A DNA stretch of 64,000 bases, filler included, from Stramenopiles sp. TOSAG23-6 (taxonomy: Eukaryota), in the NCBI GenBank assembly GCA_900128565.1. It is 19 parts of 19 records of this genome, joined end to end, with 100 filler letters (N's around TTAATTAATTAA, not from the genome) between each part and the next. Parts side by side here need not be neighbours in the genome. Positions count along the whole stretch, not along the records: positions 6,831 to 10,139 come from LT637562.1; 18 more parts are not named here. One strand, written 5' to 3'. The notes under the pieces are model-generated. The model was not told the origin of the DNA. It saw only the letters and a list, made by a program, of their open reading frames with translations, and made no database searches. Numbering within the stretch: the first letter of the stretch is position 1; every line of letters starts with the position of its first letter. The position numbers were made by a program, and so were the translations under genes. Shown here piece after piece: positions 3,318 through 51,627 of this stretch.

Positions 3318-3417
3318 NNNNNNNNNNNNNNNNNNNNNNNNNNNNNNNNNNNNNNNNNNNNTTAATTAATTAANNNNNNNNNNNNNNNNNNNNNNNNNNN
3401 NNNNNNNNNNNNNNNNN
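3318..3417. other. Artificial contig spacer (N-TTAATTAATTAA-N); recurs about every 3.4 kb (near 6775, 10184, 13592, 17000, 20408, 23814, 27215, 30613, 34008, 37397, 40784, 44165, 47542, 50917, 54290, 57663, 61036)
   Basis: Identical all-frame stop linker flanked by N runs; spacing falls steadily from 3413 to 3373, i.e. length-sorted contigs. Confidence 0.97.
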
Positions 3418-6400
3418 CCAGCAGACATAACTATACGACCCCCAGATTCGTTGTTGCCACTACCAACAGATACACTGATGCTTCCACCAGCACCTAATGT
3501 TGCATTCCCAGTGCGTAATGACATCGCTCCACTACTTCCTTTACCAGACGCACCAGTAGATAGTGATAAAGAACCAGACACACCTGAAGTTCCACCATTT
3601 GCAGTGCGAATACTAAACGTGCCACTAGATGTTGCAGATCCATAACCTGTTGTCATAGATACAGCTCCACCAGTTGATGTTGTACTCTCACCGGCATTTA
3701 TTGTGATTCGCCCACCAGTTGTTTTGTTTCCACTTCCGACTGTAATACTGATACTTCCTGATGTTCCTTTTACTGCAGCCCCAGTACGAAGTGTAATTGC
3801 ACCGCTACTGCCTTCACTTGTGTTCCCGGATATAAATGAAAGTGAACCTGAAACACCATTAGTTCCAGCATTGGATGTTTTAATACTAAATGACCCACTG
3901 GATGTAGTGCTACCATAACCAGATATCATGGAAATAGAACCACCAGTTGCATCTGTACTTTTACCTGCAGATATTACAAATCGACCACCAGATGAAGTGT
4001 CGCCACTACCAACAGATAAACTGATGCTTCCACTGGCACCTAATGTTGCATTTCCAGTGCGTAATTTTATCATACCACTATTACCTCCAGAAATAACGTT
4101 TCCGGTAGATAGTGATAAAGAACCAGAGACACCATCTGTGCCACTATCAGCAGTACGAATACTAAATGAACCACTAGATGTTGTAGATCCATAACCTGTT
4201 GTGATAGATACGGCTCCACCAGTTGATGTTGTACTCTCACCAGCGTTGATTGTAATTCTCCCACCGGTTGTTTTATTTCCATTTCCTACAAACACACTCA
4301 CACTACCACCAGCACCCAATGTTGCTGAACCGGTTTTCAGAGCAATCGAACCACTACTTCCTTTGCTAGTTGTACCAGAGATGAATGATAATGAACCAGA
4401 CATACCATTAGTTCCCGCATTTGCAGTTTTGATACTAAAGGAACCACTTGAAGATGATCTACCGTAACCAGAGATCATTGATAAAGAACCACCAGTTACA
4501 TCAGTACTCTCACCAGCAGATATAACTATACGACCACCAGTAGCTTTAGTCCCACTACCAACAGATATACTAATGCTTCCGCCAGCACCTAATGTAGCAT
4601 TCCCAGTGAATACTGATATCATACCACTACTTCCTTCACCAGTCGAGCCGGTAGATAGTGATAAAGAACCGGAAACACCATCTGTGCCACTATTTGCAGT
4701 ACGAATACTAAATGAACCACTAGATGTTGCAGATCCATAACCTGTTGTCATTGATACAGCACCACCAGTTGAAGTTGTACTTTCACCAGCACTCAAAGTA
4801 ATTCGCCCACCAGTAGATTTGTTTCCACTTCCAACTGTAATACTGATACTCCCTGATGTTCCTTTTAGTGCTGCTCCAGTACGAAGTGTAATTGCACCGC
4901 TACTACCTTCACTTGTTGTTCCAGATACAATCGAAAGTGAACCTGAGACACCATTAGTTCCGGCATTGGATGTTTTAATACTAAATGAACCACTGGATGT
5001 AGTGCTACCATACCCAGATATCATGGAAATAGAGCCACCAGTTGCATCTGTACTTTTACCTGCCGACATTACAATACGGCCACCAGATGAAGTATCTCCA
5101 CTACCAACGGATATACTAATGCTTCCACTGGCACCTAATGTTGCATTCCCAGTTCGTAATGATATCATACCACTACTTCCTTTACTAGTAATACCAGTCG
5201 ATAAAGATATAGAACCAGAGACACCATCTGTGCCCCCATTTGCCGTTCGAATACTAAATGAACCACTAGATTTTGCAGACCCATAACCTGTTGTGATAGA
5301 TACTGCGCCACCAGTTGATGTTGTACTTTCTCCGGCACTTAAAATAATTCGCCCACCAGTTGATTCATTACCACTTCCAACAATTACACTCACACTACCA
5401 CTTGTACCTAATGTGGCTGAACCAGTTCGAAGAATTATGGAGCCACTGCTTCCTCTGCTAGTTGTACCTGATGTTAATGACAATGAACCAGACACACCAT
5501 CAGTTCCCGCATTTGAAGTTTTGATACTAAAGGAACCACTTGAAGATCCTCTACCATAACCAGAGATCATTGATAAAGAACCACCAGTTACATCTGTACT
5601 CTCACCAGCAGACATAACTATACGACCCCCAGATTCGTTGTTGCCACTACCAACAGATAAACTGATGCTCCCACCAGCACCTAATGTTGCTTTCCCAGTG
5701 CGTAATGATATCATTCCACTNCTACCACCACTTACAACATTTCCCGTGGATAGTGATATTGATCCTGACACACCACTACTTCCACTGTTAGCAGTACGAA
5801 TGCTAAACGATCCACTAGATGTAGCTGCACCAAATCCAGTGATAAAAGAAACTGAACCTCCTGTATCCGATGTGCTATCACCAGCATCAATAGTAACACG
5901 TCCACCAGGTCCTTCATTGCCAGTTCCTACTAGAATACTAATACTTCCGCCTGTCCCAAGGGTTGCTGATCCCGACCGAAGTAAAATAGCTCCACTACTA
6001 CCTTTGCTTGAAGTACCAGAAATTAATGACAATGACCCAGATACCCCATCACTTCCAGCATCTGTCGTACGTATACTGAATGTTCCGCTAGAAGATGCTC
6101 TACCATAGCCAGATGCTAAAGATATTACACCGCCTGTAGAAGTAGTACTTTCACCGGCAGATATAGATATACGTCCACCGGGACCTTTATTTCCACTACC
6201 AACAATGATGCTCACACTACCACCAGTGCCCTTAGTTGCTGATCCTGTTTTTAAGGTAATCATTCCACTACTACCATGATGAGCGACACCCGATTCAATT
6301 TTGATCGCACCGGAGACACCATTAGTCCCTGCATTGGCAGAACTAATTGTAAAAGCACCACTAGAAGATGTACTTCCGTAACCTGTCACCAGAGACACCG

Positions 6401-6730
6401 TACCACCTGTGACATCTTGACTCTGACCAGCATTAATTTGAACTCGACCACCCGACGCTATATTACCATTGCCAACAGCGATACTAATACTCCCACCAGC
6501 TCCTGAAGTAGCTTCTCCGGTACGCAGCATGATCATGCCACTGCTTCCTTTGCTCGTAGTTCCTGTCGAAAACGATAATGATCCGGAAACACCAGCTGTG
6601 CCACCATTTGCAGTACGAATACTGAATGAACCACTAGATGTCGCAGACCCATAACCTGTTGTCATCGATACAGCTCCACCAGTTAATGTTGTACTCTCAC
6701 CAGCATTGATTGTGATTCTCCCACCGGTTG
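3418..6730 (-). CDS. Internal fragment of a very large Gly/Ser/Thr-rich repeat protein (15-aa units, 90-aa super-repeat)
   Basis: Uninterrupted ORF of about 1100 aa spanning the contig. Units such as GGAVSMTTGYGSATS / SGSFSIRTANGGTAG recur, with synonymous divergence between copies. Confidence 0.9.
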
Positions 6731-7460
6731 NNNNNNNNNNNNNNNNNNNNNNNNNNNNNNNNNNNNNNNNNNNNTTAATTAATTAANNNNNNNNNNNNNN
6801 NNNNNNNNNNNNNNNNNNNNNNNNNNNNNNCAGACATCGGAAGCTGATCGCTTCGAACTCTTTTTCATCACCCCTTTTGAAATATCTTCTTTATTACGCA
6901 ATTTAGTATTTTCAACCAATACTGGTTTTGAAGATGAGCAGATCTCTTTTGGAGTACTGGCTGATTTAGAAACCTTGCCAAGCTTTCCTTTGTTTGGTGC
7001 AACTTTAGGAGGAAGCGACTCGGATTGTTGAATATCTATAGACGAAGGACGTTTGTTAAATAAGGGGAACATTACTTGGAACAAAACAATATACCGAATT
7101 AAATAGATTCAACAAAGCAGAAAGGGGATAATGGTATTCGTTTATTCACCCCCTTATTCAAAGCTTTCACACCACAATCTAATTTGAGATTGAATTTGAT
7201 TGTTAGATTAGATTTTTGTACACCGAGACGAAAAAAAGCCTCTTTACGAGATGATGGCGATGAGGATGACCTTTGAAATTTTGCGTGGTACCCGGTAACG
7301 TATTAATCGTCAATAATTCAGTTCGTTGTTCTCGAACACGAACAATTTCATATAGGTAGTACAAAACAATTATTGTGTAAGCTACTAGTGAAACATGTAT
7401 ACTATCGCATGACTGGAACACGAAGAACTCTGGGTGTACAATCATTGTTTTTAGTATACT

Positions 7461-9095
7461 ATGAGTCGTTTCGCTAATGTTGTTTCCTCTAAATTACGTA
7501 TCGGTCGGTTCTGTAGTGCATGTAGACAAAATAAAGTATTTCAATTCCGGTCTCTTGGTAGCGTAGTAAAATACCCTCCTCCTCCAATGAAAATGTCACA
7601 AATAGGGAATAACATAAATAGAAATAAGAAACACAATAAGAAAATGTCGGATTCGTTATCTTCAAAGGAACGAACAATTTTAAAACACAATATTGTTCTT
7701 AACGACGTCAATAGTGATTACTGTCGTTCTAGTCAAGAGTGCCAATACATTATTGACAAGTTAGCACCAAAAGCTGGAAAAATACAGAGTACACGTATGT
7801 ATTGTAATCTTGCAAAAATGCTTCTTTTAGAAGGCGACATAAATGCCGCTAGAAATGTCGTATCTTCTCATATATCATCACTGGCTATAGAGTCCAGTAT
7901 TTCATCAGGTACAGATTTTTGTACGAAAAAGTTATTATATCTTTTTGACAATGGAGAATTACAGAAGTTTAGGATTTCTTCAATATTAAAATGGATAAGT
8001 GATGATAAAAAAAGTCTGTTTGGTGTATCTGGATTATTTTCCGCTTTGCAACTTCTTCATACGTTGCATTATAACAAACAAGCAAACACTGATTTGTACC
8101 GAATTTTGATTGATAAATTAGTCACTGTAGATAACTGTGAACGAAATAATATGTCTAACAATGCTACAACAAATACTAACAATGCTATAACAAATATTTC
8201 ATGGACAATTGAATCAGATTATGGTCTTTCATTTTCGATTTATAAAGCTTGTCTTCGAGAAAGAACTGATATACCTATAGGAAATAGACTACTCTCTCCT
8301 ATTATTTCCAACTGTACACATGTATGTTTTATTTTTTTTCAAATTTAATTTTTTTTCGTACGAAATTTCGTACCTAACAAAACAAATTAGATTTTTTTTT
8401 TGAAATATTTTTCCAAAATACATGAAGATGAACAAGGACTAATTCAATTTTCACATTCTGATGAAAGACGAGTCATTGACTTACATGGAGCTAGTCGTGG
8501 TGTTGCAGTTGTTAGAATTACGGATGTACTCATTCAACTACGTCGATATTTCCTTAACCCTAACAGAACTGCGAAATCAGTCATGCCGATATCATTCTTG
8601 GTCGGGTTAGGAATTCATAGTAAAGCAAAAGTAGATCCTGAAAGTAAACTAACATTTAAAGAAATAATTCTACCAAGTGTACTTCGGACGTTTCTTCATG
8701 AAGTCTTGAATCCACCTATTCAAACAAAAGTGAATTTTGAAAATCCAGCGGAGATTGATCTTAATACAACAGATATTGAAAATTGGATCAAGAGTGAACA
8801 AGCTACATTGTGGGAGAAAATTGTCGTCAATTCGTCAGATTTATATAATAGTTATGTAAATGTCACACATTCTGATCAAAAGAAAAGACTAGCATTATTG
8901 TACCAAGAAAAACAGAAATGGGATTCTAAATATGGAGATGGTATGACGTCTACTACATTATATACAAATGATATAAATCCAAAAAGAATGTCTATAACAA
9001 ATTGTAGGAAAAAGTCATCTTCATCATTTGTTTTTTCTCAGTTTCTGAAAAGTATCGAAGAAGGAAAGCAAATAGCTAGAGAAAAACATTTGTAA
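7461..9095 (+). CDS. Smr/MutS2-domain protein, two exons (7461-8321, 8424-9095), possible mitochondrial presequence
   Basis: VIDLHGASRGVA...FLVGLGIHS is an Smr signature; the GT-AT intron 8322-8423 joins NCTH|EDEQ in frame. Confidence 0.7.
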
Positions 9096-10239: not shown

Positions 10240-10647
10240 AAAAACCTGATTATTTGACTTGTATGTTTTCTTACATTTTTTTTTTTTTTCGTAATTTTTT
10301 TTTTTTTTTTTTTTTAAAAAATTTTTTTTTTTTTTTTTTCAAAATTTTTTTTTTTTTGTACGAGAAAAAAAAATCATACTAACAATTTTTTTACATTTTT
10401 TTCTAAAATATTATGTACATAGTATACGTATACAACAAATTATAAATTCGCGTCGAAGTAATCGTTTATTCATATCCATTGCAAAAAACACGAAATCTAA
10501 AATATTAAATTCAAAATGTCGTCGTCAAATTTCACAATATCAACAAAAAAAAATATTAGACAATGAAACAAACAAAATTCAAAAATTAGAAGAACAAAAA
10601 AATAATGTACGCTTTCATTTCAATTTTGAATTTATTTATTTATTTTG

Positions 10648-10683
<36 letters not shown>

Positions 10684-13547
10684 TTTTTAAAAAAAATTTT
10701 TTTCCAAAAAAAAAAAAAAAAAAAAAAAAAAAAACAATTTTCAATGAAACAAATATTTTGACTTTTTTTTGTTTTTTTTGTTTTTTCAAATATTTTTTCA
10801 CAATGTATCTAGTGATTCAATTAGGTGGTTATATTAAAAATGGTATCGATGGAATCACAGTCACTTCTAATGATGATTTTGATGATAATTTTCGTTTTCA
10901 TGAAAATTCATCCTATTTAAATGATAAGAATAATGATGATTTTACTTTTGATTTTAATCATGATTTTAAACATAATGATTATTTTAATGATTATTTTCGA
11001 TTTCTTGAAAATAATAATGATTTTAATAATGATGATGATTTTAATAATGATGAATTTCGATTTGCAATAGAAAAAAAGGAAAAAATGCTTGTTCGAATAA
11101 ATGGTGTTATACTATCAGCAGGAAGTTCAATTGAAAGACAAGTACAGAAAAGCGTTATACAACGATTAACAAAAAAAAAANAAGAAATTCAACAAGAAAT
11201 CAAAGAACAATCAGAAGAGGGTAATGGTAATGGTGATGATGATGGTAATGATGATGGTAATGGTAATGATGATGGTCATGGTGATGATGAAGAAGATAAT
11301 GAAGATAATGAAGCTAATGATGATAATGATGATAATGATGATAATGATGAAGAAGAAGATGATAAAAAATTTCAATATGCAATAATGACACATAATTTCC
11401 CACCAATTGGTAAAACGTATGAAAATCAATTAAAAGTGAACAAAAATGATATAATTTTCATTCTTGAAGAATATAAAAGTGGAGCTAGTGAAAGATGGAG
11501 TCTGGCAATGACAATTGATAAAGAGAAAACAGGTTATGTAGCACAATCATTTTACAACATTATAACAAAAGAAGAAGCAGACATAAAATTAGATGAGGCT
11601 AAACAAGAAAAAGCAGCAATGGTTATTCAGTCTGCTTATCGTGATCGTCAAGCAAAAGCAAAACAAAATGAAGCAGCTATGGTTATTCAGTCTGCTTATC
11701 GTGATCGTCAAGCAAAACGAAATGAAGCAATCGCAGCTGCAGAACAAGCAGCTAATGATTCCGACACCGCTGGTGGTGGTACTGGTGGTGGTACTACAGA
11801 TGGTGGTGATTCCGGTAGTACAGATGGTGCAGATGCTGGTGGTAGTACACTACCACAAAAAACAAACCAACCACAGGCACCTGGTGATTCCGGTGATTCC
11901 GGTAGTACAGATGATACAGATGGTGATGGTGATGATGATGAAGAAGAAGATAATGATGATGAAGAAGAAGATGAAGAAGAAGAAGATGATGAAGAAGAAG
12001 ATGATGATGAAGAAGAAGAAGAAGAAGAAGGAGAAGAAGGAGGAGGAGAAACTACTCCTGTAGATGATGATGTTGATGTTGCTGATTCTCCAGCAGAAGA
12101 AGGCATTGGTGATGCTGATGGTGGTGAAGAAGGTGGTGGTGAAGAAGGCAAAGAATCTGTTGGCAATGCAGTTAGAACAGATCAAAAAAAAAAAGATGGT
12201 GTTGTAAATACAAAACGTATTCTTATTCTTGGAATGAGTTCTGGTGAGTATACACGGACACACCGACCTGATACGCCATTACGTGAGAGTTTCAATATTC
12301 CAGCGGATCAACATATTGAAATTTATTTCATTGATGATGTATGTTTTTTTTTTTTTTTTNAAAAAAATCGAATTTNTTTTTTGTTTTTGGTTTCATACGA
12401 AATTTTGTACCTAACAAATTTTTTTCAATTTTTTTTCAATTTTANTTTTTTTTTTTTNGTTTTTTTTTNGTAAAAAAATTTTGTATCTAACAAATTTTTT
12501 TTTTAGTAAATTTTTAAATATTTTTTCAAAATACATGGAACAGCTTCTGGTGGAGACGGTCCAGGTAAAGTGAAAGACAAAGCATGGTACAACGCTCGCA
12601 AGTCTGGATCTTCAGAGCCCGACACAATGGACAACAAGACAACACTTTTTGATTACATTGGCAAATTTGACAATTTACCAAAAGATTTTACAAACAATTT
12701 CTTTGATTTCATCTTAAATGATTGGTCGACAAGCAAATTTTTTCCTCCAGGATTTGGCCTTGTCCTTCAAAACTTACTACGACAAGGAGGCCAAATACAC
12801 ATGCAAGATATACTGCCAAAAGTGCCATATGGTTCAGGTCCCGGGGCGAGGTGTATGGATTCTAACCAAGAGAAGTTGCAACCTCCTAATCAATATGTCA
12901 TGTTATCTCAAACGATAGGTGGTGGACCTATTTACTGCATAGTAACAAATGATACGACAGTCTGGGATTTGAAGGTTGGAGTTATAACATTAAAAAACCC
13001 TGATCAATCAGCCACCAGCTACGATTCGATTATTGATATGGCAAACAATAGCAACTTACCAAATAATACTGTGGTGAAGGATATGAAGAAGAAGGTGGGA
13101 TTCATGTTTTTCCCAGGCACTCCTTTTACCGTCGGTGGAATGTCCTTTGAGGATTTTACAAAAGGTGGTGGTATGAATCAACGAATACCTTTTGAAACAT
13201 ATCCATTGGCTTCTTCTCGTTTAAAAAAAGCCGGTCATGAAGCGAAAAATTATGTTCAATTTGCTGCTACTGTAGATGGTGCTGCTACTGGTGGTGCTGC
13301 TGTTGATGGTGATGCTGCTGGTAAGAATCCAGCAAAACCAAATGCAGCTGCAGAACAAGCAGCTAATGATTCCGACACTGCTGGTGGTGGTGGTGGTGGT
13401 GATGCCGGTGATGCCGGTGGTGGTGCTGGGCCTGCTGGTGATGGGTCTGCTGGTGCTTCTCCAGCAGTAGAAGAAGAAGAAGAAGAAGATGCTGGTGATG
13501 GTGATGGTGATGCTCCTCCAGCAGTAGAAGAAGAAGAAGAAGAAGAA
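10240..13547 (+). CDS. Multi-exon fragment: SH3 domain, two IQ motifs, acidic low-complexity tracts (copy 1)
   Basis: SH3-like YAIMTHNF...QLKVNKNDII...RWSLA...KTGYVAQSFY and AAMVIQSAYR x2; the GT-AT intron 12339-12536 joins IDD|GTASGG in frame with the 12570 ORF. Confidence 0.75.
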
Positions 13548-14055
13548 NNNNNNNNNNNNNNNNNNNNNNNNNNNNNNNNNNNNNNNNNNNNTTAATTAAT
13601 TAANNNNNNNNNNNNNNNNNNNNNNNNNNNNNNNNNNNNNNNNNNNNAAAAACCTGATTATTTGACTTGTATGTTTTCTTACATTTTTTTTTTTTTTCGT
13701 AATTTTTTTTTTTTTTTTTTTTTAAAAAATTTTTTTTTTTTTTTTTTCAAAATTTTTTTTTTTTTGTACGAGAAAAAAAAATCATACTAACAATTTTTTT
13801 ACATTTTTTTCTAAAATATTATGTACATAGTATACGTATACAACAAATTATAAATTCGCGTCGAAGTAATCGTTTATTCATATCCATTGCAAAAAACACG
13901 AAATCTAAAATATTAAATTCAAAATGTCGTCGTCAAATTTCACAATATCAACAAAAAAAAATATTAGACAATGAAACAAACAAAATTCAAAAATTAGAAG
14001 AACAAAAAAATAATGTACGCTTTCATTTCAATTTTGAATTTATTTATTTATTTTG

Positions 14056-14091
<36 letters not shown>

Positions 14092-17000
14092 TTTTTAAAA
14101 AAAATTTTTTTCCAAAAAAAAAAAAAAAAAAAAAAAAAAAAACAATTTTCAATGAAACAAATATTTTGACTTTTTTTTGTTTTTTTTGTTTTTTCAAATA
14201 TTTTTTCACAATGTATCTAGTGATTCAATTAGGTGGTTATATTAAAAATGGTATCGATGGAATCACAGTCACTTCTAATGATGATTTTGATGATAATTTT
14301 CGTTTTCATGAAAATTCATCCTATTTAAATGATAAGAATAATGATGATTTTACTTTTGATTTTAATCATGATTTTAAACATAATGATTATTTTAATGATT
14401 ATTTTCGATTTCTTGAAAATAATAATGATTTTAATAATGATGATGATTTTAATAATGATGAATTTCGATTTGCAATAGAAAAAAAGGAAAAAATGCTTGT
14501 TCGAATAAATGGTGTTATACTATCAGCAGGAAGTTCAATTGAAAGACAAGTACAGAAAAGCGTTATACAACGATTAACAAAAAAAAAACAAGAAATTCAA
14601 CAAGAAATCAAAGAACAATCAGAAGAGGGTAATGGTAATGGTGATGATGATGGTAATGATGATGGTAATGGTAATGATGATGGTCATGGTGATGATGAAG
14701 AAGATAATGAAGATAATGAAGCTAATGATGATAATGATGATAATGATGATAATGATGAAGAAGAAGATGATAAAAAATTTCAATATGCAATAATGACACA
14801 TAATTTCCCACCAATTGGTAAAACGTATGAAAATCAATTAAAAGTGAACAAAAATGATATAATTTTCATTCTTGAAGAATATAAAAGTGGAGCTAGTGAA
14901 AGATGGAGTCTGGCAATGACAATTGATAAAGAGAAAACAGGTTATGTAGCACAATCATTTTACAACATTATAACAAAAGAAGAAGCAGACATAAAATTAG
15001 ATGAGGCTAAACAAGAAAAAGCAGCAATGGTTATTCAGTCTGCTTATCGTGATCGTCAAGCAAAAGCAAAACAAAATGAAGCAGCTATGGTTATTCAGTC
15101 TGCTTATCGTGATCGTCAAGCAAAACGAAATGAAGCAATCGCAGCTGCAGAACAAGCAGCTAATGATTCCGACACCGCTGGTGGTGGTACTGGTGGTGGT
15201 ACTACAGATGGTGGTGATTCCGGTAGTACAGATGGTGCAGATGCTGGTGGTAGTACACTACCACAAAAAACAAACCAACCACAGGCACCTGGTGATTCCG
15301 GTGATTCCGGTAGTACAGATGATACAGATGGTGATGGTGATGATGATGAAGAAGAAGATAATGATGATGAAGAAGAAGATGAAGAAGAAGAAGATGATGA
15401 AGAAGAAGATGATGATGAAGAAGAAGAAGAAGAAGAAGGAGAAGAAGGAGGAGGAGAAACTACTCCTGTAGATGATGATGTTGATGTTGCTGATTCTCCA
15501 GCAGAAGAAGGCATTGGTGATGCTGATGGTGGTGAAGAAGGTGGTGGTGAAGAAGGCAAAGAATCTGTTGGCAATGCAGTTAGAACAGATCAAAAAAAAA
15601 AAGATGGTGTTGTAAATACAAAACGTATTCTTATTCTTGGAATGAGTTCTGGTGAGTATACACGGACACACCGACCTGATACGCCATTACGTGAGAGTTT
15701 CAATATTCCAGCGGATCAACATATTGAAATTTATTTCATTGATGATGTATNTTTTTTTTTTTTTTTTCAAAAAAATCGAATTTNTTTTTTGTTTTTGGTT
15801 TCATACGAAATTTTGTACCTAACAAATTTTTTTCAATTTTTTTTCAATTTTAATTTTTTTTTTTTTGTTTTTTTTTCGTAAAAAAATTTTGTATCTAACA
15901 AATTTTTTTTTTAGTAAATTTTTAAATATTTTTTCAAAATACATGGAACAGCTTCTGGTGGAGACGGTCCAGGTAAAGTGAAAGACAAAGCATGGTACAA
16001 CGCTCGCAAGTCTGGATCTTCAGAGCCCGACACAATGGACAACAAGACAACACTTTTTGATTACATTGGCAAATTTGACAATTTACCAAAAGATTTTACA
16101 AACAATTTCTTTGATTTCATCTTAAATGATTGGTCGACAAGCAAATTTTTTCCTCCAGGATTTGGCCTTGTCCTTCAAAACTTACTACGACAAGGAGGCC
16201 AAATACACATGCAAGATATACTGCCAAAAGTGCCATATGGTTCAGGTCCCGGGGCGAGGTGTATGGATTCTAACCAAGAGAAGTTGCAACCTCCTAATCA
16301 ATATGTCATGTTATCTCAAACGATAGGTGGTGGACCTATTTACTGCATAGTAACAAATGATACGACAGTCTGGGATTTGAAGGTTGGAGTTATAACATTA
16401 AAAAACCCTGATCAATCAGCCACCAGCTACGATTCGATTATTGATATGGCAAACAATAGCAACTTACCAAATAATACTGTGGTGAAGGATATGAAGAAGA
16501 AGGTGGGATTCATGTTTTTCCCAGGCACTCCTTTTACCGTCGGTGGAATGTCCTTTGAGGATTTTACAAAAGGTGGTGGTATGAATCAACGAATACCTTT
16601 TGAAACATATCCATTGGCTTCTTCTCGTTTAAAAAAAGCCGGTCATGAAGCGAAAAATTATGTTCAATTTGCTGCTACTGTAGATGGTGCTGCTACTGGT
16701 GGTGCTGCTGTTGATGGTGATGCTGCTGGTAAGAATCCAGCAAAACCAAATGCAGCTGCAGAACAAGCAGCTAATGATTCCGACACTGCTGGTGGTGGTG
16801 GTGGTGGTGATGCCGGTGATGCCGGTGGTGGTGCTGGGCCTGCTGGTGATGGGTCTGCTGGTGCTTCTCCAGCAGTAGAAGAAGAAGAAGAAGAAGATGC
16901 TGGTGATGGTGATGGTGATGCTCCTCCAGCAGTAGAAGAAGAAGAAGAAGAAGAANNNNNNNNNNNNNNNNNNNNNNNNNNNNNNNNNNNNNNNNNNNNT

Positions 17001-17463
17001 TAATTAATTAANNNNNNNNNNNNNNNNNNNNNNNNNNNNNNNNNNNNNNNNNNNNAAAAACCTGATTATTTGACTTGTATGTTTTCTTACATTTTTTTTT
17101 TTTTTCGTAATTTTTTTTTTTTTTTTTTTTTAAAAAATTTTTTTTTTTTTTTTTTCAAAATTTTTTTTTTTTTGTACGAGAAAAAAAAATCATACTAACA
17201 ATTTTTTTACATTTTTTTCTAAAATATTATGTACATAGTATACGTATACAACAAATTATAAATTCGCGTCGAAGTAATCGTTTATTCATATCCATTGCAA
17301 AAAACACGAAATCTAAAATATTAAATTCAAAATGTCGTCGTCAAATTTCACAATATCAACAAAAAAAAATATTAGACAATGAAACAAACAAAATTCAAAA
17401 ATTAGAAGAACAAAAAAATAATGTACGCTTTCATTTCAATTTTGAATTTATTTATTTATTTTG

Positions 17464-17499
<36 letters not shown>

Positions 17500-20363
17500 T
17501 TTTTAAAAAAAATTTTTTTCCAAAAAAAAAAAAAAAAAAAAAAAAAAAAACAATTTTCAATGAAACAAATATTTTGACTTTTTTTTGTTTTTTTTGTTTT
17601 TTCAAATATTTTTTCACAATGTATCTAGTGATTCAATTAGGTGGTTATATTAAAAATGGTATCGATGGAATCACAGTCACTTCTAATGATGATTTTGATG
17701 ATAATTTTCGTTTTCATGAAAATTCATCCTATTTAAATGATAAGAATAATGATGATTTTACTTTTGATTTTAATCATGATTTTAAACATAATGATTATTT
17801 TAATGATTATTTTCGATTTCTTGAAAATAATAATGATTTTAATAATGATGATGATTTTAATAATGATGAATTTCGATTTGCAATAGAAAAAAAGGAAAAA
17901 ATGCTTGTTCGAATAAATGGTGTTATACTATCAGCAGGAAGTTCAATTGAAAGACAAGTACAGAAAAGCGTTATACAACGATTAACAAAAAAAAAANAAG
18001 AAATTCAACAAGAAATCAAAGAACAATCAGAAGAGGGTAATGGTAATGGTGATGATGATGGTAATGATGATGGTAATGGTAATGATGATGGTCATGGTGA
18101 TGATGAAGAAGATAATGAAGATAATGAAGCTAATGATGATAATGATGATAATGATGATAATGATGAAGAAGAAGATGATAAAAAATTTCAATATGCAATA
18201 ATGACACATAATTTCCCACCAATTGGTAAAACGTATGAAAATCAATTAAAAGTGAACAAAAATGATATAATTTTCATTCTTGAAGAATATAAAAGTGGAG
18301 CTAGTGAAAGATGGAGTCTGGCAATGACAATTGATAAAGAGAAAACAGGTTATGTAGCACAATCATTTTACAACATTATAACAAAAGAAGAAGCAGACAT
18401 AAAATTAGATGAGGCTAAACAAGAAAAAGCAGCAATGGTTATTCAGTCTGCTTATCGTGATCGTCAAGCAAAAGCAAAACAAAATGAAGCAGCTATGGTT
18501 ATTCAGTCTGCTTATCGTGATCGTCAAGCAAAACGAAATGAAGCAATCGCAGCTGCAGAACAAGCAGCTAATGATTCCGACACCGCTGGTGGTGGTACTG
18601 GTGGTGGTACTACAGATGGTGGTGATTCCGGTAGTACAGATGGTGCAGATGCTGGTGGTAGTACACTACCACAAAAAACAAACCAACCACAGGCACCTGG
18701 TGATTCCGGTGATTCCGGTAGTACAGATGATACAGATGGTGATGGTGATGATGATGAAGAAGAAGATAATGATGATGAAGAAGAAGATGAAGAAGAAGAA
18801 GATGATGAAGAAGAAGATGATGATGAAGAAGAAGAAGAAGAAGAAGGAGAAGAAGGAGGAGGAGAAACTACTCCTGTAGATGATGATGTTGATGTTGCTG
18901 ATTCTCCAGCAGAAGAAGGCATTGGTGATGCTGATGGTGGTGAAGAAGGTGGTGGTGAAGAAGGCAAAGAATCTGTTGGCAATGCAGTTAGAACAGATCA
19001 AAAAAAAAAAGATGGTGTTGTAAATACAAAACGTATTCTTATTCTTGGAATGAGTTCTGGTGAGTATACACGGACACACCGACCTGATACGCCATTACGT
19101 GAGAGTTTCAATATTCCAGCGGATCAACATATTGAAATTTATTTCATTGATGATGTNTGTTTTTTTTTTTTTTTTNAAAAAAATCGAATTTNTTTTTTGT
19201 TTTTGGTTTCATACGAAATTTTGTACCTAACAAATTTTTTTCAATTTTTTTTCAATTTTAATTTTTTTTTTTTNGTTTTTTTTTCGTAAAAAAATTTTGT
19301 ATCTAACAAATTTTTTTTTTAGTAAATTTTTAAATATTTTTTCAAAATACATGGAACAGCTTCTGGTGGAGACGGTCCAGGTAAAGTGAAAGACAAAGCA
19401 TGGTACAACGCTCGCAAGTCTGGATCTTCAGAGCCCGACACAATGGACAACAAGACAACACTTTTTGATTACATTGGCAAATTTGACAATTTACCAAAAG
19501 ATTTTACAAACAATTTCTTTGATTTCATCTTAAATGATTGGTCGACAAGCAAATTTTTTCCTCCAGGATTTGGCCTTGTCCTTCAAAACTTACTACGACA
19601 AGGAGGCCAAATACACATGCAAGATATACTGCCAAAAGTGCCATATGGTTCAGGTCCCGGGGCGAGGTGTATGGATTCTAACCAAGAGAAGTTGCAACCT
19701 CCTAATCAATATGTCATGTTATCTCAAACGATAGGTGGTGGACCTATTTACTGCATAGTAACAAATGATACGACAGTCTGGGATTTGAAGGTTGGAGTTA
19801 TAACATTAAAAAACCCTGATCAATCAGCCACCAGCTACGATTCGATTATTGATATGGCAAACAATAGCAACTTACCAAATAATACTGTGGTGAAGGATAT
19901 GAAGAAGAAGGTGGGATTCATGTTTTTCCCAGGCACTCCTTTTACCGTCGGTGGAATGTCCTTTGAGGATTTTACAAAAGGTGGTGGTATGAATCAACGA
20001 ATACCTTTTGAAACATATCCATTGGCTTCTTCTCGTTTAAAAAAAGCCGGTCATGAAGCGAAAAATTATGTTCAATTTGCTGCTACTGTAGATGGTGCTG
20101 CTACTGGTGGTGCTGCTGTTGATGGTGATGCTGCTGGTAAGAATCCAGCAAAACCAAATGCAGCTGCAGAACAAGCAGCTAATGATTCCGACACTGCTGG
20201 TGGTGGTGGTGGTGGTGATGCCGGTGATGCCGGTGGTGGTGCTGGGCCTGCTGGTGATGGGTCTGCTGGTGCTTCTCCAGCAGTAGAAGAAGAAGAAGAA
20301 GAAGATGCTGGTGATGGTGATGGTGATGCTCCTCCAGCAGTAGAAGAAGAAGAAGAAGAAGAA
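10240..20363 (+). repeat. Three near-identical 3.3 kb contigs (10240-13547, 13648-16955, 17056-20363): assembly redundancy
   Basis: Identical except at N positions, same breakpoints, separated by artificial linkers. Confidence 0.93.
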
Positions 20364-21398: not shown

Positions 21399-22286
21399 TT
21401 AATTGACAAGTTCAATAGATTTAATATTTTTAATTCCCTGTTGTTCAAGTCGATTCCTCATTTATTTTGGAAAAATATTTAAAAAAAAAAAAAAAAATTG
21501 TTAGGTACAAAATTTCCTATGAAAAAAAAAAATCAAAATTCAATTTTGAAAACGTACATTGTGTCCAAATCATTCGCAGAAATCCCAAGATCATTCTTAA
21601 TTTCTTCAACTGACTGGCTTCCATCGTCATATATGACTAAAACTCTTCGGCATTTATTTTGAAGAAATATGTAAAAACGTGAATTTTATGAGAATTTTTG
21701 AAAAAAAAAAAAAAAATTTTTGAAAAAAAAATTTTTTTTTGAAAAAAAAAAACAACCCTAACCCTAAAAACCCTAAAAACCCTAAAAACCCTAAAAACCC
21801 TAAAAACCCTAAAAACCTAAATTACAACAAATTCATAGTAAAAACCTACATGTTGTGTTCTCTAGCCAACCTTCACCTCCTGATATATGCCATGCATTCC
21901 TCATCATTAACTCGAAGTAATCATCATCGTCAATGGAGGCACTGATATCTCGATAATATTCGGCAAATTCATCGGGGGTGATTACACCACTCTTTTTTGT
22001 AGAAAAATATTTCAAAAAAAAAAATTGTTAGGTACAAAATTTCCTACGAAAAAATTTTTTTTTTCCGAAAAAAAAAAAAAAAAAAAAAAAAACATACATC
22101 ATCTTTATCCCACTGATGAGCAAAGTGTTGCAAAGCTTCTTCCTCGGTTTTTCTTCCCGATAAAACGTCCGGATGTTGTGAACAATCATAAATGTTTTTG
22201 ATATCTTCCAATGTAACTGTACCATCACAATTATTATCAAGTAAATTATATGCTTTTGTGACAAAAGACATTCTCCTTTCATTCAT
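21399..22286 (-). CDS. Calcyphosin-like EF-hand Ca2+-binding protein, 3' exons
   Basis: EF-hands DNNCDGTVTLEDI and DKDD|SGVITPDEF; SASIDDDDYFELMMRNAWHISGGEGW...NTT|CRRVLV. Introns 21992-22097 (GT-AG), 21652-21849 (GT-AT), 21460-21557 (GT-AT). Confidence 0.85.
21756..21820 (+). repeat. Telomere-like CCCTAA / CCCTAAAAA tandem array inside an intron
   Basis: CCCTAACCCTAAAAA followed by further 9-bp units. Confidence 0.8.
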
Positions 22287-29081: not shown

Positions 29082-29155
29082 TTTATTTGGTTTTTTTACA
29101 TTTTAATTTATTTAAAAAAAAACTTGTTTTTGCTAGAATTAGTTTTGGTCTATTT

Positions 29156-33592: not shown

Positions 33593-33924
33593 TTAAGCAT
33601 AATGTAATTTTCCATTCATCACATCATTCAAATCACCTGGATTAATGTTACTACCTGATACTACACAAACAATTCTTTTACCAGTTACTTTTTGAGATAG
33701 TACAGCAGCTATACCTGCACATGTATTTTGGAAAATAATTCAAAAAAAATCGTTAGGTACAAAATTTCGTACGAAAAAAAATTCAAATTGAAAAAAAATA
33801 AAACGTACAACCCGAAGTTTCGCAAACGAAACCAAATGAATACATTAACTTTGTTGCTGCTACTAAATCTTCATCCGTTACGAGGACAACTTGATCAACA
33901 AATTCTTTGCAATGCGAATACGTA
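33593..33924 (-). CDS. PLP-dependent threonine dehydratase / serine racemase family, last two exons (not in ORF track)
   Basis: Spliced CKEFVDQVVLVTDEDLVAATKLMYSFGFVCETSG|CAGIAAVLSQKVTGKRIVCVVSGSNI matches the fold-type II C-terminus; intron 33721-33807. Confidence 0.82.
33721..33807 (-). other. Family intron, GT-AT (87 nt, contains no AG)
   Basis: TCG GGT T|GTACGTTTT...CCAAAATACAT|GT GCA GGT preserves ExSGxAGIAA spacing. Confidence 0.85.
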
Positions 33925-35294: not shown

Positions 35295-37220
35295 ATGCAG
35301 CGTCGTGGAAGTACACGCCAAATAGCCGTCGGATGGCTAGAAAAGAAGTGTAAACGTATGGGGTATGTTCGGCGTTGGATGCTTTTAAACTCACAGGGCG
35401 AACTTTTGCAAGCAAAGGACGAAAGAGGTAAAAAACGGCGTCTTCTAGTGTCATTGACACCAGGTTGTGGTTTACATGCACGTGCTCTAGAAGGTAAGAG
35501 TTCATCATTATATATCGGTTCAACAAATCCAAATATAAAAACTCGTATTTTTCTGCGTGCGGTTGATGAAGCTGTCCGCGATGAATGGCTTATTGCAATT
35601 CTTATTTCTCTTGGTGAAGTTAGAAAAGGCGGTGGTAATATAAATGGTTTGAGTATGGGTAATGTCACGTCACAATTAGTTCATGCGTCAGGATCACTAT
35701 CTGTGACAACAAATTGGTCAAAAGTTAGATTAGCTAATAGTAATGGAAAACTTAAGCTATGTAATAATGCGAATTTGACGCCCATAAATTCGGATAGCAA
35801 AAATAATGATGAGTGTGGAAGTGATAATGATGATGAGAAATCTCCAGTTTCGGCGTATTGGGCTAGAGTTCGAAGAGCATCAGCGCGAGGAGAGTTTGGT
35901 CCTGGATATAATACAGAAAACGGAGAAAATACACAAAATACAAAAAATACACAAAATACACAAAATACACAAAATATACAAAATATACAAAATATACAAA
36001 ATATACAAAATACACAAAATACACAAAATACAAAAAGTCAAGGATTATCCTCCAATCTATCCTCCAGTGCCCCTCAAAAAAGTCTCGATATTGACGCCAA
36101 TAAAAGTTTGGGCCCAAAATCAGAGTCACAAGAGAATCTTATTTTAGATAATTTATTTGATGAAAAACAAAATCCTTCAAAGAACTCAAAATCAATAGAT
36201 AACCCTAACCCTAATACAGATAATTCATTAGGGTTAGGGTTCCTCCAGGACGTCCAAGAACTTGATTCATTTTTATCTGCTTCGGAATTAAGGGTGAGAA
36301 GAGATTCCAAGTTTAAAAAGAAAGTTTCAATTTATTCTCCTCATCTTTCGTCTAATACAGAATTGGCAATTACTGCTGCATGTACGTTTTCAATTTCGAA
36401 TTTCGAATTTTTTTTTTTTTTTGTACGAAATTTTGTACCTAACAATTTTTTTTTTTTGAAAATATTTTCCAAAAAATATTATTAGATAGCCGCCATAGAG
36501 CAACATCACTACGCGAATTTTCATTAGATGACACTTCATCTGCAAAATTATCATCGAGAACAAATCAGAAAGAACCTGATAAATATTCTAATGATAACCC
36601 TAACCCTAATTTTAGTCTTCCTTTGAGACAATACCCATTTGAAATTAGTAAATTATCAAATGGAGAAAATGAATCTGTGCCTGCTGATCTCAAGTCCTCT
36701 GTTCGACGGCGAATATTTGTATATTATACACTTTCATTTCAAATTTATTTTTTTTTTTCTTTTTTTTTTCGTACGAAATTTCGTACCTAACAGATTTCAA
36801 TTTTTTTTTCGAAATATTGTTCACAATATTTGGTGCTCTTCGAGATGCATTACACGGAATAGTCAACGCCAATACTACTGATAAAAGTTCTCCTATATTA
36901 GTTTTGGATAGTGATACGCATTTTATTATGAGAACTGTCTGCACATACCAAGAAGTTATTTTGTTAGGTTTCGTGTCAATAGAAATATTAGGTAATATCC
37001 AAGATAAAGTAAAATGGAAAAAGTATAAAAATTTTATATACTTTATTTCACCGATTATTTTTGATACATCAAAATCTTCATCACACTATTTGTCATCCAT
37101 TGATACTCTACTTGCTTTGTATCAAATAAGTACAAAAAATGCGAAAAATAATAAAAACCCAAACACATCGCATGGATCGATACTCATTTTGTTTACAGAG
37201 CCTTCATCTGTTGATGGATG
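35295..37220 (+). CDS. PH-domain protein fragment, multi-exon (downstream exon linkage uncertain)
   Basis: VGWLEKK...YVRRWMLL...FLRAVDEAVRDEWLIAI is a PH signature; family introns at ~36382 and ~36720. Confidence 0.65.
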
Positions 37221-43644: not shown

Positions 43645-44004
43645 GCTGGTTTGGTTGGTGAATATCTTCTTGAACATTTTGCTCGTGTTCCAGTTGAGGT
43701 GGAGTATGCCTCTGAATTCCGGTATAAAAATCCTATTTTGAATAAGGAGACTGACGTTGTGTTTGTAATATCTCAATCTGGTGAAACGGCAGGTATGTTT
43801 TATTTTTTTTTTTTTTCCGGTAAAAAAAAATCGAATTTTTTTTTTTATAAAAATTTTGTACCTAACGAATTTAAAAGTTTTTTTTTTCACAATACAGATA
43901 CTTTAGCTGCAGTTAGACTTGCGAATGAATGTGGAGTATTAACTATTGGTGTCGTAAATACTGTTGGGTCAACAATCGCTCGTGAAACTACAGGTGGAAT
44001 ATAT
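43645..44004 (+). CDS. glmS: Glutamine:fructose-6-phosphate amidotransferase, SIS domain exons
   Basis: [30 protein letters not shown]...[13 protein letters not shown]...[12 protein letters not shown]; intron 43793-43897 (GT-AG, family body). Confidence 0.92.
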
Positions 44005-46535: not shown

Positions 46536-47689
46536 GTATGTTTTATTTTTTTTCAATTTCGAATTTATTTTTTTTTCATACGAAATTTCGTACCTAACAA
46601 AAACACAAACAAAAATATTTTTTCACAATACATAATCAACAGAATGCAAAATATGATTCATCCCCAGTCCCCATCTTTTACATTATATTTGATACAAGCT
46701 TCATTTGAACCTCTTCAGGGTATGTACGTTTTCATCATGAATGTATTTGTTTTTTTATTGGTATGAAATTTCGTACCTAACGATTTTTTTCATNATNTCT
46801 TGTTTTTTTTTTTCACGATACATTGGAAATGCTTGGGCGTATGGCTTAAATACAAGATTAATATTTAATTGGGTAAGATATTGTGGTAGGAATACATCGA
46901 TTAACGAACGTGGTTTTCTGAAGCGAAATTGTTATAATTGCATTCGCTGTGGTTGTATGTTTTTCATTGTAAATTTAAATTAATTTGATTTTTTGGTATA
47001 GAAAATTTCGTACGTAACAAATTCAAAAGACCAAAATGTTAGCCCTAACCCTAACGTTAACCCTAACCCTAATATATTTTTTCACAATACTTCTTGTTTG
47101 AAAGATAATGCGAGACGATGGAGTCAGTCTGATTCATTGGATGCTTCAGATGATGCTAGCAATACTACGACTGGAGAACCTTTTATTATGTGATATATCT
47201 TGTGAAGAATATTTTTTTTATTTTGTATTTGTTAGGTACAAAATGTGGTACATTTTTTTTTTGTATTAGTAATCGAAATTTAATTTATCTGAAAGGTTTT
47301 TATTGTTCATTTATCAAATCTGGACCTGGACAAACGTTTTGAAATAAAAATCCTAATAATTATAGTACTAATAAATAATGAGATTCCATACCGTTTTTTT
47401 GTAATTGATAACAACCCATAAAATATAATAAAATATAATAGAAAAATATTTTATTATTTGAAATTCTCTGTCGTCTTGAAAGATTGGCTACTTTATANNN
47501 NNNNNNNNNNNNNNNNNNNNNNNNNNNNNNNNNNNNNNNNNTTAATTAATTAANNNNNNNNNNNNNNNNNNNNNNNNNNNNNNNNNNNNNNNNNNNNCAA
47601 AAAGAAAAAAAAAAAAAATGATGATTTCAATTTTTTTTTTCATAGTAAATTTTGTACCTAAGAAAAACAAAAACAAAAAAATAACATAC

Positions 47690-51082: not shown

Positions 51083-51627
51083 GAGATTTGGTCCTGATGT
51101 CGAATGGGTTTTGGGTAATGATAAGAGTAATAGCCTATCAAATATAGAAGTAGATTATTCTGTAGATGTTGGTTTTCATCATGAATTTCAAATTTATTTT
51201 TTTCGTATGAAATTTTGTACCTAACGATTTTTTATTAAAACAATATTTTTGACAGTACATCCCTCTCGATCTGAAAGTTTTTATTCTGAAATACGAAAAT
51301 ATTGGCCAAATATTCAAAATGGTTCCCTCCTCCCTGACTATTCTGGTATAAGACCAAAACTAGTACCAAGTGGCACTCCAGCAGCAGATTTTAAAATTTG
51401 GTCGGGAAAAGAATATGTACTTTTTCAAAATTAAATTTTTTACTATTTTTTTTTTCATACGAAATTTCGTACCTAACGATTTTTTTATACAATATTTTTT
51501 CACAATGTATAATATAAAAAAAAATATACAACGAGATTTCAGTGGTCTCGTTAATTTATTTGGAATTGAATCTCCAGGATTAACTTCATCAATGGCTTTA
51601 GCTGATGCTACTTTTGAAGCTTTATAA
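51083..51627 (+). CDS. L2HGDH: L-2-hydroxyglutarate dehydrogenase-like FAD oxidoreductase, 3' exons
   Basis: RFGPDVEW...DYSVD|PSRSESFYSEIRKYWP...PDYSGIRPKL...GLVNLFGIESPGLTSS; GT-AT introns 51168-51260 and 51417-51510. Confidence 0.88.

What the first reader, a model, noticed from the sequence alone, without database searches (positions are those of the whole stretch)
8358..8378. Conserved 16-bp palindrome fused to the branch-point motif, plus a second hairpin before the acceptor
Seen: GTACGAAATTTCGTAC is a perfect palindrome directly followed by CTAAC. The common variants GTACGAAATTTTGTAC and GTATGAAATTTTGTAC keep pairing through G-U wobble. A second imperfect inverted repeat, TTTTGAAATATTTTTCCAAAA, lies just before TACAT, and a TTCGAA palindrome often lies upstream. 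These blocks are conserved while the poly-T spacers vary freely in length. Inference: RNA structure or a dedicated binding protein may position the branch point and an AG-independent acceptor; alternatively these are transposase-binding sites.
Basis: partly seen in the sequence, partly recalled or inferred. Interest (0 to 1): 0.75.

Follow-up and report, generated by a model that had tools for sequence, protein, structure and literature searches.

The report
Transposon-like intron family ending in AT
The palindrome is one block of a roughly 100-base intron copied dozens of times in this marine protist's genes; it looks like a small transposon, appears to be cut out at a non-standard AT end, and shows no sign of a conserved RNA hairpin.

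Summary
The sequence facts hold. GTACGAAATTTCGTAC+CTAAC sits at 8358-8378, inside a 102-nt intron (8322-8423). The motif recurs far beyond chance: 68 strand-matches against 0.02 expected.

The window is at least 19 short contigs of an AT-rich, stramenopile-like draft. It holds about 63 non-redundant copies of one intron family:
- a GTAYGT donor
- T-runs
- the palindrome
- a CTAAC branch box
- an ...ATACAT end

The RNA-hairpin idea fails. There is no covariation (74.4% of cells paired against 74.9% in shuffles, no double changes). The left arm decays while the right arm plus CTAAC persists (27 right-only copies against 4 left-only). RNAalifold finds no consensus fold, and the second hairpin is no better than shuffled sequence.

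The AG-independent acceptor is supported:
- Removing exactly GT...AT restores the reading frame in 17 of 24 decisive copies.
- It gives ungapped alignment to six homologues at 51168-51260, where an AG 5 nt upstream goes unused.
- Rare AG-ended copies end at the same position.

The last two intron bases copy the two bases before GT (23 of 30; the AG/AG and TT/TT cases give p=0.0002). That is a 2-bp target-site duplication, so this is an introner-like transposon family.

No spliced RNA was seen, so the junctions are inferred.

The parts
8320..8321 (+). Exon dinucleotide AT just before the donor. Proposed first copy of a 2-bp target-site duplication.
   Evidence: AT precedes 20 of 30 donors, against 10.8% of all GT sites in the window.
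8322..8423 (+). The intron copy that holds the finding: 102 nt, GTATGT...ATACAT, phase 0.
   Evidence: Removing it joins a 289-codon and a 223-codon open frame. The frame score is 60 at the exact boundary and at most 13 at shifts of 1-2 nt.
8322..8327 (+). Donor GTATGT.
   Evidence: GT is invariant in the 22 aligned copies. Hexamers in 30 copies: GTATGT 17, GTACGT 7, others 6.
8358..8373 (+). The 16-nt palindrome. The left arm (8358-8363) is the decaying half.
8364..8378 (+). The most conserved block of the family: AATTTYGTAC plus CTAAC, an extended branch box. The likely branch A is at 8377.
   Evidence: Invariant or nearly invariant columns in A1 and A2. 27 copies keep it without a recognisable left arm.
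8398..8418 (+). Second imperfect inverted repeat, part of the conserved 3' block.
   Evidence: No fold better than shuffles.
8422..8423 (+). Terminal AT of the intron. Proposed second copy of the duplication, used as the 3' boundary.
   Evidence: Last two bases in 30 copies: AT 27, TT 2, AG 1.
51168..51260 (+). AT-ended copy (GTTGGT...GACAGTACAT) in an L-2-hydroxyglutarate-dehydrogenase-like gene. The best-validated junction.
   Evidence: The joined product aligns without a gap across the junction to 6 of 6 homologues. The downstream exon starts at residue 286 of 3dme_A.
33721..33808 (-). AT-ended copy in a threonine/serine-dehydratase-like gene, phase 1.
   Evidence: The upstream exon ends at ETSG, residue 318 of 3iau_A. 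NCBIfam profile positions on the two sides are colinear within one residue.
43793..43897 (+). AG-ended copy (AG before the donor, ...ACAG at the end) in a GFAT-like SIS domain.
   Evidence: SIS profile positions 19-67, then the junction codon, then 70-103 from residue 2.
21992..22097 (-). AG-ended copy in an EF-hand gene, phase 0.
   Evidence: The EF-hand_7 match of the upstream exon stops at profile position 52 of 67, inside the second loop.
36719..36831 (+). Copy with TT before the donor and TT as its last two bases. In frame.
46955..47092 (+). Second TT/TT copy. It carries CCCTAA repeats inside.
   Evidence: An AG 12 nt downstream would also be in frame.

Best explanation
The palindrome is an inherited block of a short (median 105 nt) non-autonomous, transposon-like element that has multiplied through the genes of an AT-rich marine stramenopile. 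It now makes up nearly all introns seen in this window.

The element brings its own donor (GTAYGT) and an extended branch box (AATTTYGTAC-CTAAC). Insertion duplicates two target bases, usually AT. The cell removes the element plus the downstream copy of that duplication, so most copies are GT...AT introns. A few are GT...AG or GT...TT, depending on the target.

Only the right arm of the palindrome is kept by selection, because it overlaps the branch signal. The left arm drifts. The palindrome is therefore a relic of the element and not a working RNA hairpin.

Shown: the family, its blocks and their decay pattern; the lack of covariation; frame restoration; protein colinearity at four junctions; the match between flank and terminal dinucleotides; and sense orientation.

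Inferred: removal is by the major spliceosome, the 3' site is chosen by position or context rather than by AG, and the family spread by transposition.
For: Family and copy number:
- 68 strand-matches against 0.02 expected, and 63 non-redundant copies.
- 36 of 68 GTAYGT hexamers are followed by the family box within 200 nt.
- 22 of 36 internal contig ends lie within 110 nt of a family mark, against 28% of window positions.
- 605, 702 and 716 contigs from three seawater RNA libraries (two studies) lie almost only on the conserved blocks. Pieces from other loci stop aligning at 27934-27937, the element's end.

No hairpin selection.

Boundaries:
- 17 of 24 decisive copies favour the exact GT...NN boundary, with 5 and 2 for the other two frame classes (p=0.0002).
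- 6 of 6 homologues align ungapped across the junction of 51168-51260, although an AG lies 5 nt upstream.
- 33721-33808 is colinear within one residue.
- AG-ended copies end at the homologous position.

Duplication: the flank and terminal dinucleotides match in 23 of 30 copies. All three non-AT matches are AG/AG or TT/TT (permutation p=0.00023).

Sense bias: 27 of 30 copies have longer flanking open frames on the element's strand (p=4e-6).

GT...AT is preferred over AT...AC because GT is invariant while the upstream AT is not. By my reading, four non-AT flanks (AAC, CAC, GGT-T, AGG-T) differ from AT only synonymously, as exon sequence would.
Against: - No spliced read or transcript was seen. 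The RNA-library contigs look unspliced and may be DNA.
- 7 of 24 decisive copies favour another frame class. They include 566-662, 22285-22419, 24338-24472 (in frame only if the intron ends 2 nt earlier) and 62571-62673 (in frame with an AG 20 nt downstream). 46536-46633 was a tie, and removing it exactly leaves a stop codon at the junction.
- At least one contig looks chimeric inside a copy, which may explain some misses but also weakens frame tests.
- The terminal inverted repeat is short (GTAT..TTTT against AAAATAC). Its pairs do not covary: donor position +4 is C opposite an A at position -6 in 8 copies.
- No transposase gene, empty site or insertion polymorphism was found.
- Seven of 30 flank/terminal pairs do not match. 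The AG-ended copy 21992-22097, which was not in that set, has AT upstream.
- All copies come from one 64-kb window of a fragmented draft.
Confidence: 0.6

Rival explanations
1. One reading: the palindrome forms an RNA hairpin next to the branch point, alone or with a binding protein. The hairpin presents the branch site and helps define the unusual acceptor.
For: The perfect and the common G-U forms fold as a 6-bp hairpin (-6.5 and -4.4 kcal/mol, z about -2.6). The stem abuts CTAAC in every copy. Position 12 is C or T, and both pair with G5.
Against: - No pair has changes on both sides. Pairing is 74.4% against 74.9% in shuffles, and the covariation score is 0.091 against 0.093.
- 29 of 52 distinct rows lack the closing pair and 22 of 52 lack the fourth pair.
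- The hairpin disappears in the ATAC and GTAG variants.
- 27 copies keep the right arm without the left arm, against 4 the other way round.
- RNAalifold does not predict the stem.
Confidence: 0.08
2. The likeness among introns reflects very strict lineage-wide splice signals kept by selection, as in intron-poor yeasts or diplomonads, and not copies of a mobile element.
For: The best-kept blocks are the donor, the branch box and the 3' end. Nearly every intron in the window has them. Mean pairwise identity is only 77%.
Against: - Spacer blocks with no known signal value are shared, such as CAATTTCGAATT and GAAATATTTTT.
- The flank and terminal dinucleotides match, including AG/AG and TT/TT.
- Contigs break inside copies.
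- Compound introns hold 2-3 branch boxes.
- Some pairs are up to 99% identical.
Confidence: 0.1
3. The same elements are removed as AT...AC introns: the cut is two bases upstream at both ends. This is a known terminal pair that either spliceosome can handle.
For: For the 20 copies with AT on both sides, the mRNA is identical under either reading. The bases at -4 and -3 are AC in 22 of 30 copies. A first A paired with a last C is an accepted combination (recalled; AT-AC classes are listed in PMC1557818, passages read).
Against: Under this reading the first two intron bases would be AT in only 20 of 30 copies and the last two AC in 22 of 30. Under GT...AT the figures are GT in 30 of 30 and AT in 27 of 30. 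The upstream dinucleotide varies in a way that is mostly synonymous, as exon sequence does (my reading). GTAYGT is a standard donor.
Confidence: 0.08
4. They are minor-spliceosome (U12-like) introns. That system tolerates GT...AT ends.
For: GT-AT is among the pairs reported as spliceable by the U12-type machinery (PMC1557818, passages read). The donor and branch box resemble the U12 consensus motifs in part (consensus recalled).
Against: Donor positions +5 and +6 are GT, not CC, and +4 varies between T and C. The branch box lies a median of 41 nt (32-115) from the 3' end, far beyond the short spacing typical of U12 introns (recalled). No U11, U12 or U6atac RNA could be searched for.
Confidence: 0.05
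5. The elements are excised from DNA. This would be precise transposon excision or programmed elimination that leaves one copy of the 2-bp duplication, as with ciliate internal eliminated sequences, and no RNA splicing would be involved.
For: The boundaries follow the duplication and not AG. RNA-library contigs carry unspliced copies. Telomere-like repeats lie inside four copies, which could mark DNA breaks.
Against: 27 of 30 copies lie in the sense orientation of their gene, which DNA excision would not require. The donor and branch box are the best-conserved parts. No nuclear dualism is known in stramenopiles (recalled).
Confidence: 0.04

Closest known systems
Introner elements of Micromonas pusilla and Aureococcus anophagefferens (as summarised in the review PMC11282704; passages read)
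   Same: Short non-autonomous DNA-transposon-like elements present in many near-identical copies as introns. The element supplies one splice site, and the target-site duplication supplies or positions the other. Splicing removes the element plus one duplicate.
   Different: Those families give canonical splice sites and, in Micromonas, a 3-nt duplication. Here the duplication is 2 nt, usually AT, so the 3' end is AT in 27 of 30 copies. The element also carries a strong branch box and a central palindrome.
Introner elements and non-canonical introns of Amoebophrya (PMC7789003; abstract and passages read)
   Same: Repeated introns with inverted repeats at the two ends, short direct repeats that overlap the exon-intron boundaries, and non-canonical ends in a marine protist.
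   Different: Amoebophrya shows no preferred terminal dinucleotides, 8-20-nt inverted repeats, 3-5-nt direct repeats, and many families. Here a single family dominates. The donor and branch point are canonical, only the last base departs from AG, and the terminal repeat is short and does not covary.
Rare GT-AT introns of animals, U2-type and U12-type (PMC1557818; passages read)
   Same: The same terminal dinucleotides. This shows that spliceosomes can join at a 3' AT.
   Different: Those are a handful per genome (7 U12-type GT-AT among the species listed in that paper's table). Here GT...AT is the majority class, and the donor, branch box and spacing do not fit U12.
Nonconventional introns of euglenids (review PMC11282704; passages read)
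   Same: Transposon-like introns with repeats at the junctions that resemble target duplications, and ends that can pair.
   Different: Euglenid nonconventional introns lack a canonical donor and a polypyrimidine tract. This family has GTAYGT, T-runs and CTAAC.
Fungal introner-like elements (PMC3609843; abstract seen in the search listing only)
   Same: Hundreds of similar introns that degenerate into ordinary-looking introns.
   Different: Those are described as longer than regular introns, with stable predicted structures. Here no conserved structure is supported.

Membership tests
Introner / transposon-derived spliceosomal intron family | Many similar copies within one genome that sit inside genes as introns | tested here: met
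   63 non-redundant copies in 64 kb. 17 of 24 decisive copies restore the reading frame. 27 of 30 lie in sense orientation.
Introner / transposon-derived spliceosomal intron family | Target-site duplication at the boundaries | tested here: met
   Flank and terminal dinucleotides match in 23 of 30 copies. The non-AT matches are AG/AG, TT/TT and TT/TT, p=0.00023. No empty site was seen.
Introner / transposon-derived spliceosomal intron family | Terminal inverted repeats or other transposon termini | tested here: inconclusive
   GTAT(G)TTTT against AAAATAC, 4-9 nt. The first three pairs are complementary in 24-28 of 30 copies. The fourth pair is mismatched in 8 copies without compensation.
Introner / transposon-derived spliceosomal intron family | Copies are spliced from RNA | tested here: inconclusive
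   Reads were laid on 27271-29856 and no usable exon-exon joint was obtained. Support comes only from frames and homologues.
Introner / transposon-derived spliceosomal intron family | Recent mobility: lineage-specific positions, polymorphism, or an autonomous partner | not testable with these tools
   No genome is held. There is no transposase domain among the 35 ORFs scanned. The family is absent from the scanned collections.
Major (U2-type) GT-AG intron | Donor GTRNGT-like and a CTRAY branch site | tested here: met
   GT in 30 of 30 copies. GTATGT or GTACGT in 24 of 30. CTAAC in 56 of 63.
Major (U2-type) GT-AG intron | 3' terminal AG | tested here: not met
   AG in 1 of 30 copies of the set, and in one further copy (21992-22097). 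AT in 27 of 30. 11 of 31 copies hold an internal AG past the branch box. In 51168-51260 such an AG is shown to go unused.
Minor (U12-type) intron | Donor RTATCCTT and a branch box close to the 3' end (consensus recalled) | tested here: not met
   Positions +5 and +6 are GT in most copies. The distance from branch box to 3' end has a median of 41 nt.
Structured RNA element (conserved hairpin) | Base pairs kept by compensatory change | tested here: not met
   0 of 6 pairs have double changes, and the measures do not exceed shuffles. RNAalifold gives -0.23 kcal/mol. There is no Rfam match.
Amoebophrya-type introner element | 8-20-nt inverted repeats at the ends, 3-5-nt direct repeats, and no fixed terminal dinucleotides | tested here: not met
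   The repeat at the ends is shorter, the direct repeat is 2 nt, and GT is fixed at the 5' end.
DNA-level eliminated sequence (ciliate IES-like) | Removal from DNA, independent of gene strand | tested here: not met
   Sense orientation in 27 of 30 copies. DNA without the element was not looked for.

The most novel reading that the evidence does not exclude
In this uncultured marine stramenopile, one transposon family has supplied almost all introns. Its spliceosome completes splicing at a site fixed by position: two bases past the element's ...ATAC end, whatever those bases are (AT, TT or AG). It ignores AG dinucleotides that lie nearer the branch point. This would be the first genome in which GT...AT is the standard intron type, and a natural case of 3' splice-site choice uncoupled from AG in an otherwise major-type intron.
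Probability: 0.4. Interest if true: 0.85.

Novelty: new variant of a known kind. Interest (0 to 1): 0.68.

Why it matters
Introners are the leading explanation for bursts of intron gain. Known families mostly produce canonical GT-AG introns, and large surveys start from annotated introns and treat unfamiliar splice sites with suspicion (PMC12130899, methods passage).

A family whose 3' end is simply the target duplication would show two things. First, a spliceosome can be drawn away from AG recognition by transposon invasion. Second, such families are invisible to standard gene finders. The one public protein model found from this assembly (P0001) reads straight into an intron, and none turned up for the finding's own gene in the length range searched. 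Gene sets for this group of abundant ocean grazers may therefore be systematically broken.

The family also offers many natural variants for asking what defines a 3' splice site once AG is gone.

Tried and rejected
- RNA evidence. The look-up of sequencing runs on 27271-37270 gave 3 RNA runs with small shares of 0.05-0.08.
  - The corrected request, 27271-29856, showed the shared words to be the repeated intron blocks. Exons were almost uncovered: one 165-nt contig lay on 27390-27487. The listed joints were repeat-to-repeat artefacts with short sides. No splice junction can be read from this, and the absence of cover is not evidence.
- Related sequence.
  - No genome is held, and there were no earlier notes by place or sequence.
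  - A two-block pattern scan gave 74 metagenome loci and 24 prokaryote loci. None carries the family, and the single match at up to 4 mismatches is spurious.
  - The core motif gave 0 hits in viral contigs and 0 in prokaryote genomes.
- Proteins.
  - A search with ORF 7455-8348 found nothing at E<=1e-10 in the 163-520 aa range.
  - PDB searches with ORFs 31601-33466, 35127-36485, 29156-29875, 33596-33718 and 51036-51167 found nothing.
  - Junction 51417-51510 falls in a loop of variable length, so it is in frame but not informative.
- Frame tests. The first, naive longest-ORF test gave 12 of 20 in frame. It was superseded because T-rich introns stay open in several frames and some ends had been miscalled.
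- Dropped rows. I dropped the auto-called 42181-42270 (donor GTTTTT, probably spurious). I also left out copies that lost an end in N or at a contig end, the compound intron near 893-1180, the duplicated 28040-28240 region, the copy near 29839 (N inside), the long copy near 43309, and the copy near 37732.
- Literature. Searches and the passages read gave no description of this family or of GT-AT as a dominant class. Supplements were not seen and might list introner families of related assemblies.
That analysis was redone from coordinates and generic motifs.

Full report
**What the window is.** The 64 kb is not one chromosome stretch. It is at least 19 contigs of about 3.3 kb, sorted by length and joined by N44-TTAATTAATTAA-N44 linkers. 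Contigs 4-6 repeat one locus, and so do contigs 17-18. GC content is 18-44%.

The genes are ordinary eukaryotic ones: PDK-like kinase, SIS-domain GFAT, NPRL3, EF-hand, armadillo, dual-specificity phosphatase and nucleotidyltransferase. The PDK-like ORF is 95% identical to a eukprot entry labelled GSMAST32.ASY1.ANO1.496.1. Among its other hits, those that carry an organism name are mostly diatoms, brown algae and other stramenopiles. I therefore read the source as a marine stramenopile draft. No rRNA or other Rfam family lies in the window, and no genome is held.

**The observation.** The bases are as described. The motif is massively over-represented. After removing the redundant contigs, 63 copies carry the right arm plus branch box.

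A full copy has a median length of 105 nt (range 88-198, n=31). It reads, in order:
- the donor GTATGT or GTACGT followed by TTT
- a T-rich stretch, sometimes with CAATTTCGAATT
- a T-run
- C-GTACGAAATTTTGTAC-CTAAC
- an A/T spacer
- GAAATATTTTTCCAAAATACAT, or the variant ...TTTCACAATACAT

The perfect palindrome of the finding is the exception, at 2 of 63 copies.

**Is the stem selected?** No.
- On 63 copies (52 distinct rows), the 6-bp stem pairs in 74.4% of cells against 74.9% in shuffles. No pair changes on both sides. The covariation score equals the shuffled mean.
- The frequent variants A1 and G4 break pairs and are never compensated, because positions 16 and 13 stay C and G.
- Two anchors of equal length and tolerance were compared. 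39 sites pass both, 27 pass only the right-arm/branch anchor, and 4 pass only the left-arm anchor. Some of those 4 are reverse-strand readings of the palindrome.
- The hairpin is modest in the perfect and G-U forms and absent in the ATAC and GTAG forms. The second inverted repeat folds no better than shuffles.
- RNAalifold on 22 full copies predicts essentially nothing.
- What is conserved is a linear block, AATTTYGTACCTAAC, together with the donor and the last few bases.

**Where are the boundaries?** Four junctions can be checked against conserved proteins.
1. 43793-43897 ends in ...ACAG. The SIS-domain profile runs 19-67 in the upstream exon and 70-103 from residue 2 of the downstream exon. 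This leaves exactly the junction codon and one residue for profile positions 68 and 69.
2. 21992-22097 ends in ...AAAG, at the position homologous to the others. The upstream EF-hand match stops inside the second calcium loop. By my reading, the downstream exon completes that loop.
3. 51168-51260 ends in ...GACAGTACAT. When it is removed exactly, the product reads ..DYSVD|PSRSE.. and aligns without a gap across the junction to all six homologues recovered. One of them is identical over SVDPSRSE. The AG five bases upstream would shift the frame and is evidently not used.
4. 33721-33808: the upstream exon ends at ETSG, residue 318 of a solved threonine deaminase. NCBIfam profile positions on the two sides are colinear within one residue.

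Across 30 copies, the exact boundary is the best frame class in 17 of the 24 that are decisive. The finding's own copy is among the clearest.

Seven of the 24 favour another class. One of these fits if its intron is 2 nt shorter, and one fits a downstream AG. One copy that tied (46536-46633) leaves a stop codon at its junction. At least one contig joins unrelated genes inside a copy (Cox20-like exons running into GFAT at 43539-43644), so assembly chimeras inside this repeat are a likely source of misses.

**Why AT?** The last two intron bases are AT in 27 of 30 copies, TT in 2 and AG in 1. The two bases before the donor are AT in 20 of 30, against 10.8% of all GT sites in the window.

The two dinucleotides agree in 23 of 30 copies, and the three non-AT agreements are AG/AG, TT/TT and TT/TT (p=0.00023). 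That is the signature of a 2-bp target-site duplication with a preference for AT. The removed segment is the element plus the downstream duplicate.

GT is invariant while the upstream AT is not. Four of the non-AT flanks differ from AT only synonymously (my reading). The upstream copy therefore behaves as exon and the downstream copy as the splice boundary. This favours GT...AT over the formally equivalent AT...AC.

Further points:
- The element ends form a short inverted repeat, but its pairs do not covary.
- Copies lie in the sense orientation of their genes in 27 of 30 cases. This argues for removal at the RNA level.
- High copy number is shown by contig ends that fall in or next to copies (22 of 36).
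- It is also shown by 605-716 contigs per run in three seawater RNA libraries that pile up on the conserved blocks. Pieces from other loci lose similarity at the element's last bases. Those libraries may contain DNA, and they show presence, not splicing.

**Comparison with what is known.** The logic matches introners: the element brings one splice site and the duplication sets the other (review passages). The outcome is unusual, because the duplication is not AG.
- Amoebophrya introners share the end repeats and non-canonical ends but have no fixed termini.
- GT-AT pairs are known as rarities in animals.
- The donor, the branch box and a 41-nt median spacing do not fit U12-type introns.
- My four literature searches and the passages read found no description of this family.
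- Annotation-based introner surveys state that they scrutinise or discard families with unfamiliar splice sites. The one public protein model found from this assembly reads into an intron. The family could therefore easily have been missed.

**Verdict.** The palindrome is real and repeated, but it is best read as inherited transposon sequence. Its right half doubles as part of an extended branch signal.

The more interesting result is the family itself: a transposon-like intron with a duplication-defined, mostly AT, 3' end. The family and its anatomy are well supported. Splicing at AT is supported by frames and by homologues at two AT-ended junctions, but it still lacks RNA evidence.

Noticed in passing
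window-wide, e.g. 8552-8563, 26751-26762, 35200-35211, 36203-36214, 36228-36239, 36598-36609, 50601-50612; inside family introns at 40964, 42271, 44015, 47043 and 47061: Telomere-like (TTAGGG)2 12-mers with up to 1 mismatch occur 19 times, against 0.13 expected. Many sit in frame inside long ORFs, where they read for example N-P-N-P, and five sites lie inside four copies of the intron family. Unexplained. They could be traces of break repair or a DNA-binding motif.
   Followed up: partly
window 1-64000 (linkers at 3318-3417, 6731-6830 and so on): The record is a chain of about 3.3-kb contigs in order of decreasing length, joined by six-frame stop linkers. Neighbouring genes across a linker are not neighbours in the genome. 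Contigs 10240-13547, 13648-16955 and 17056-20363 are one locus three times, and 54346-57618 and 57719-60991 are one locus twice.
   Followed up: yes
43027-44120: Cox20-like exons (43027-43264, 43484-43538) are followed across intron 43539-43644 by the middle of a GFAT SIS domain. This is most likely an assembly chimera formed inside the repeated intron.
   Followed up: partly
23-183, about 893-1180, 12339-12536, 28040-28240: Compound introns hold two or three branch boxes, or a partial tandem duplication of the core. This fits nested insertion or slippage within copies.
   Followed up: no
44232-45611 (-): The public protein model P0001 derives from this contig. It ends with residues translated from the intron at 44245 and removes a 71-nt GT-AG segment from inside what looks like coding sequence. 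Automatic models mishandle this intron class.
   Followed up: partly
3366-6782 (-): Contig 2 has 44% GC, well above the rest, and is one uninterrupted 1138-codon frame with only a DUF7524 match and no family intron. It may be a different kind of gene, or foreign to this genome.
   Followed up: no
22285-22419 (-), 24338-24472 (-), 46536-46633 (+): In three copies, exact removal leaves a stop codon at the junction or within one codon of it, while a long open frame continues downstream in another frame. Possible causes are an intron just before a stop codon or in a 5' UTR, a 1-2-nt difference in the 3' boundary, or an assembly error.
   Followed up: partly
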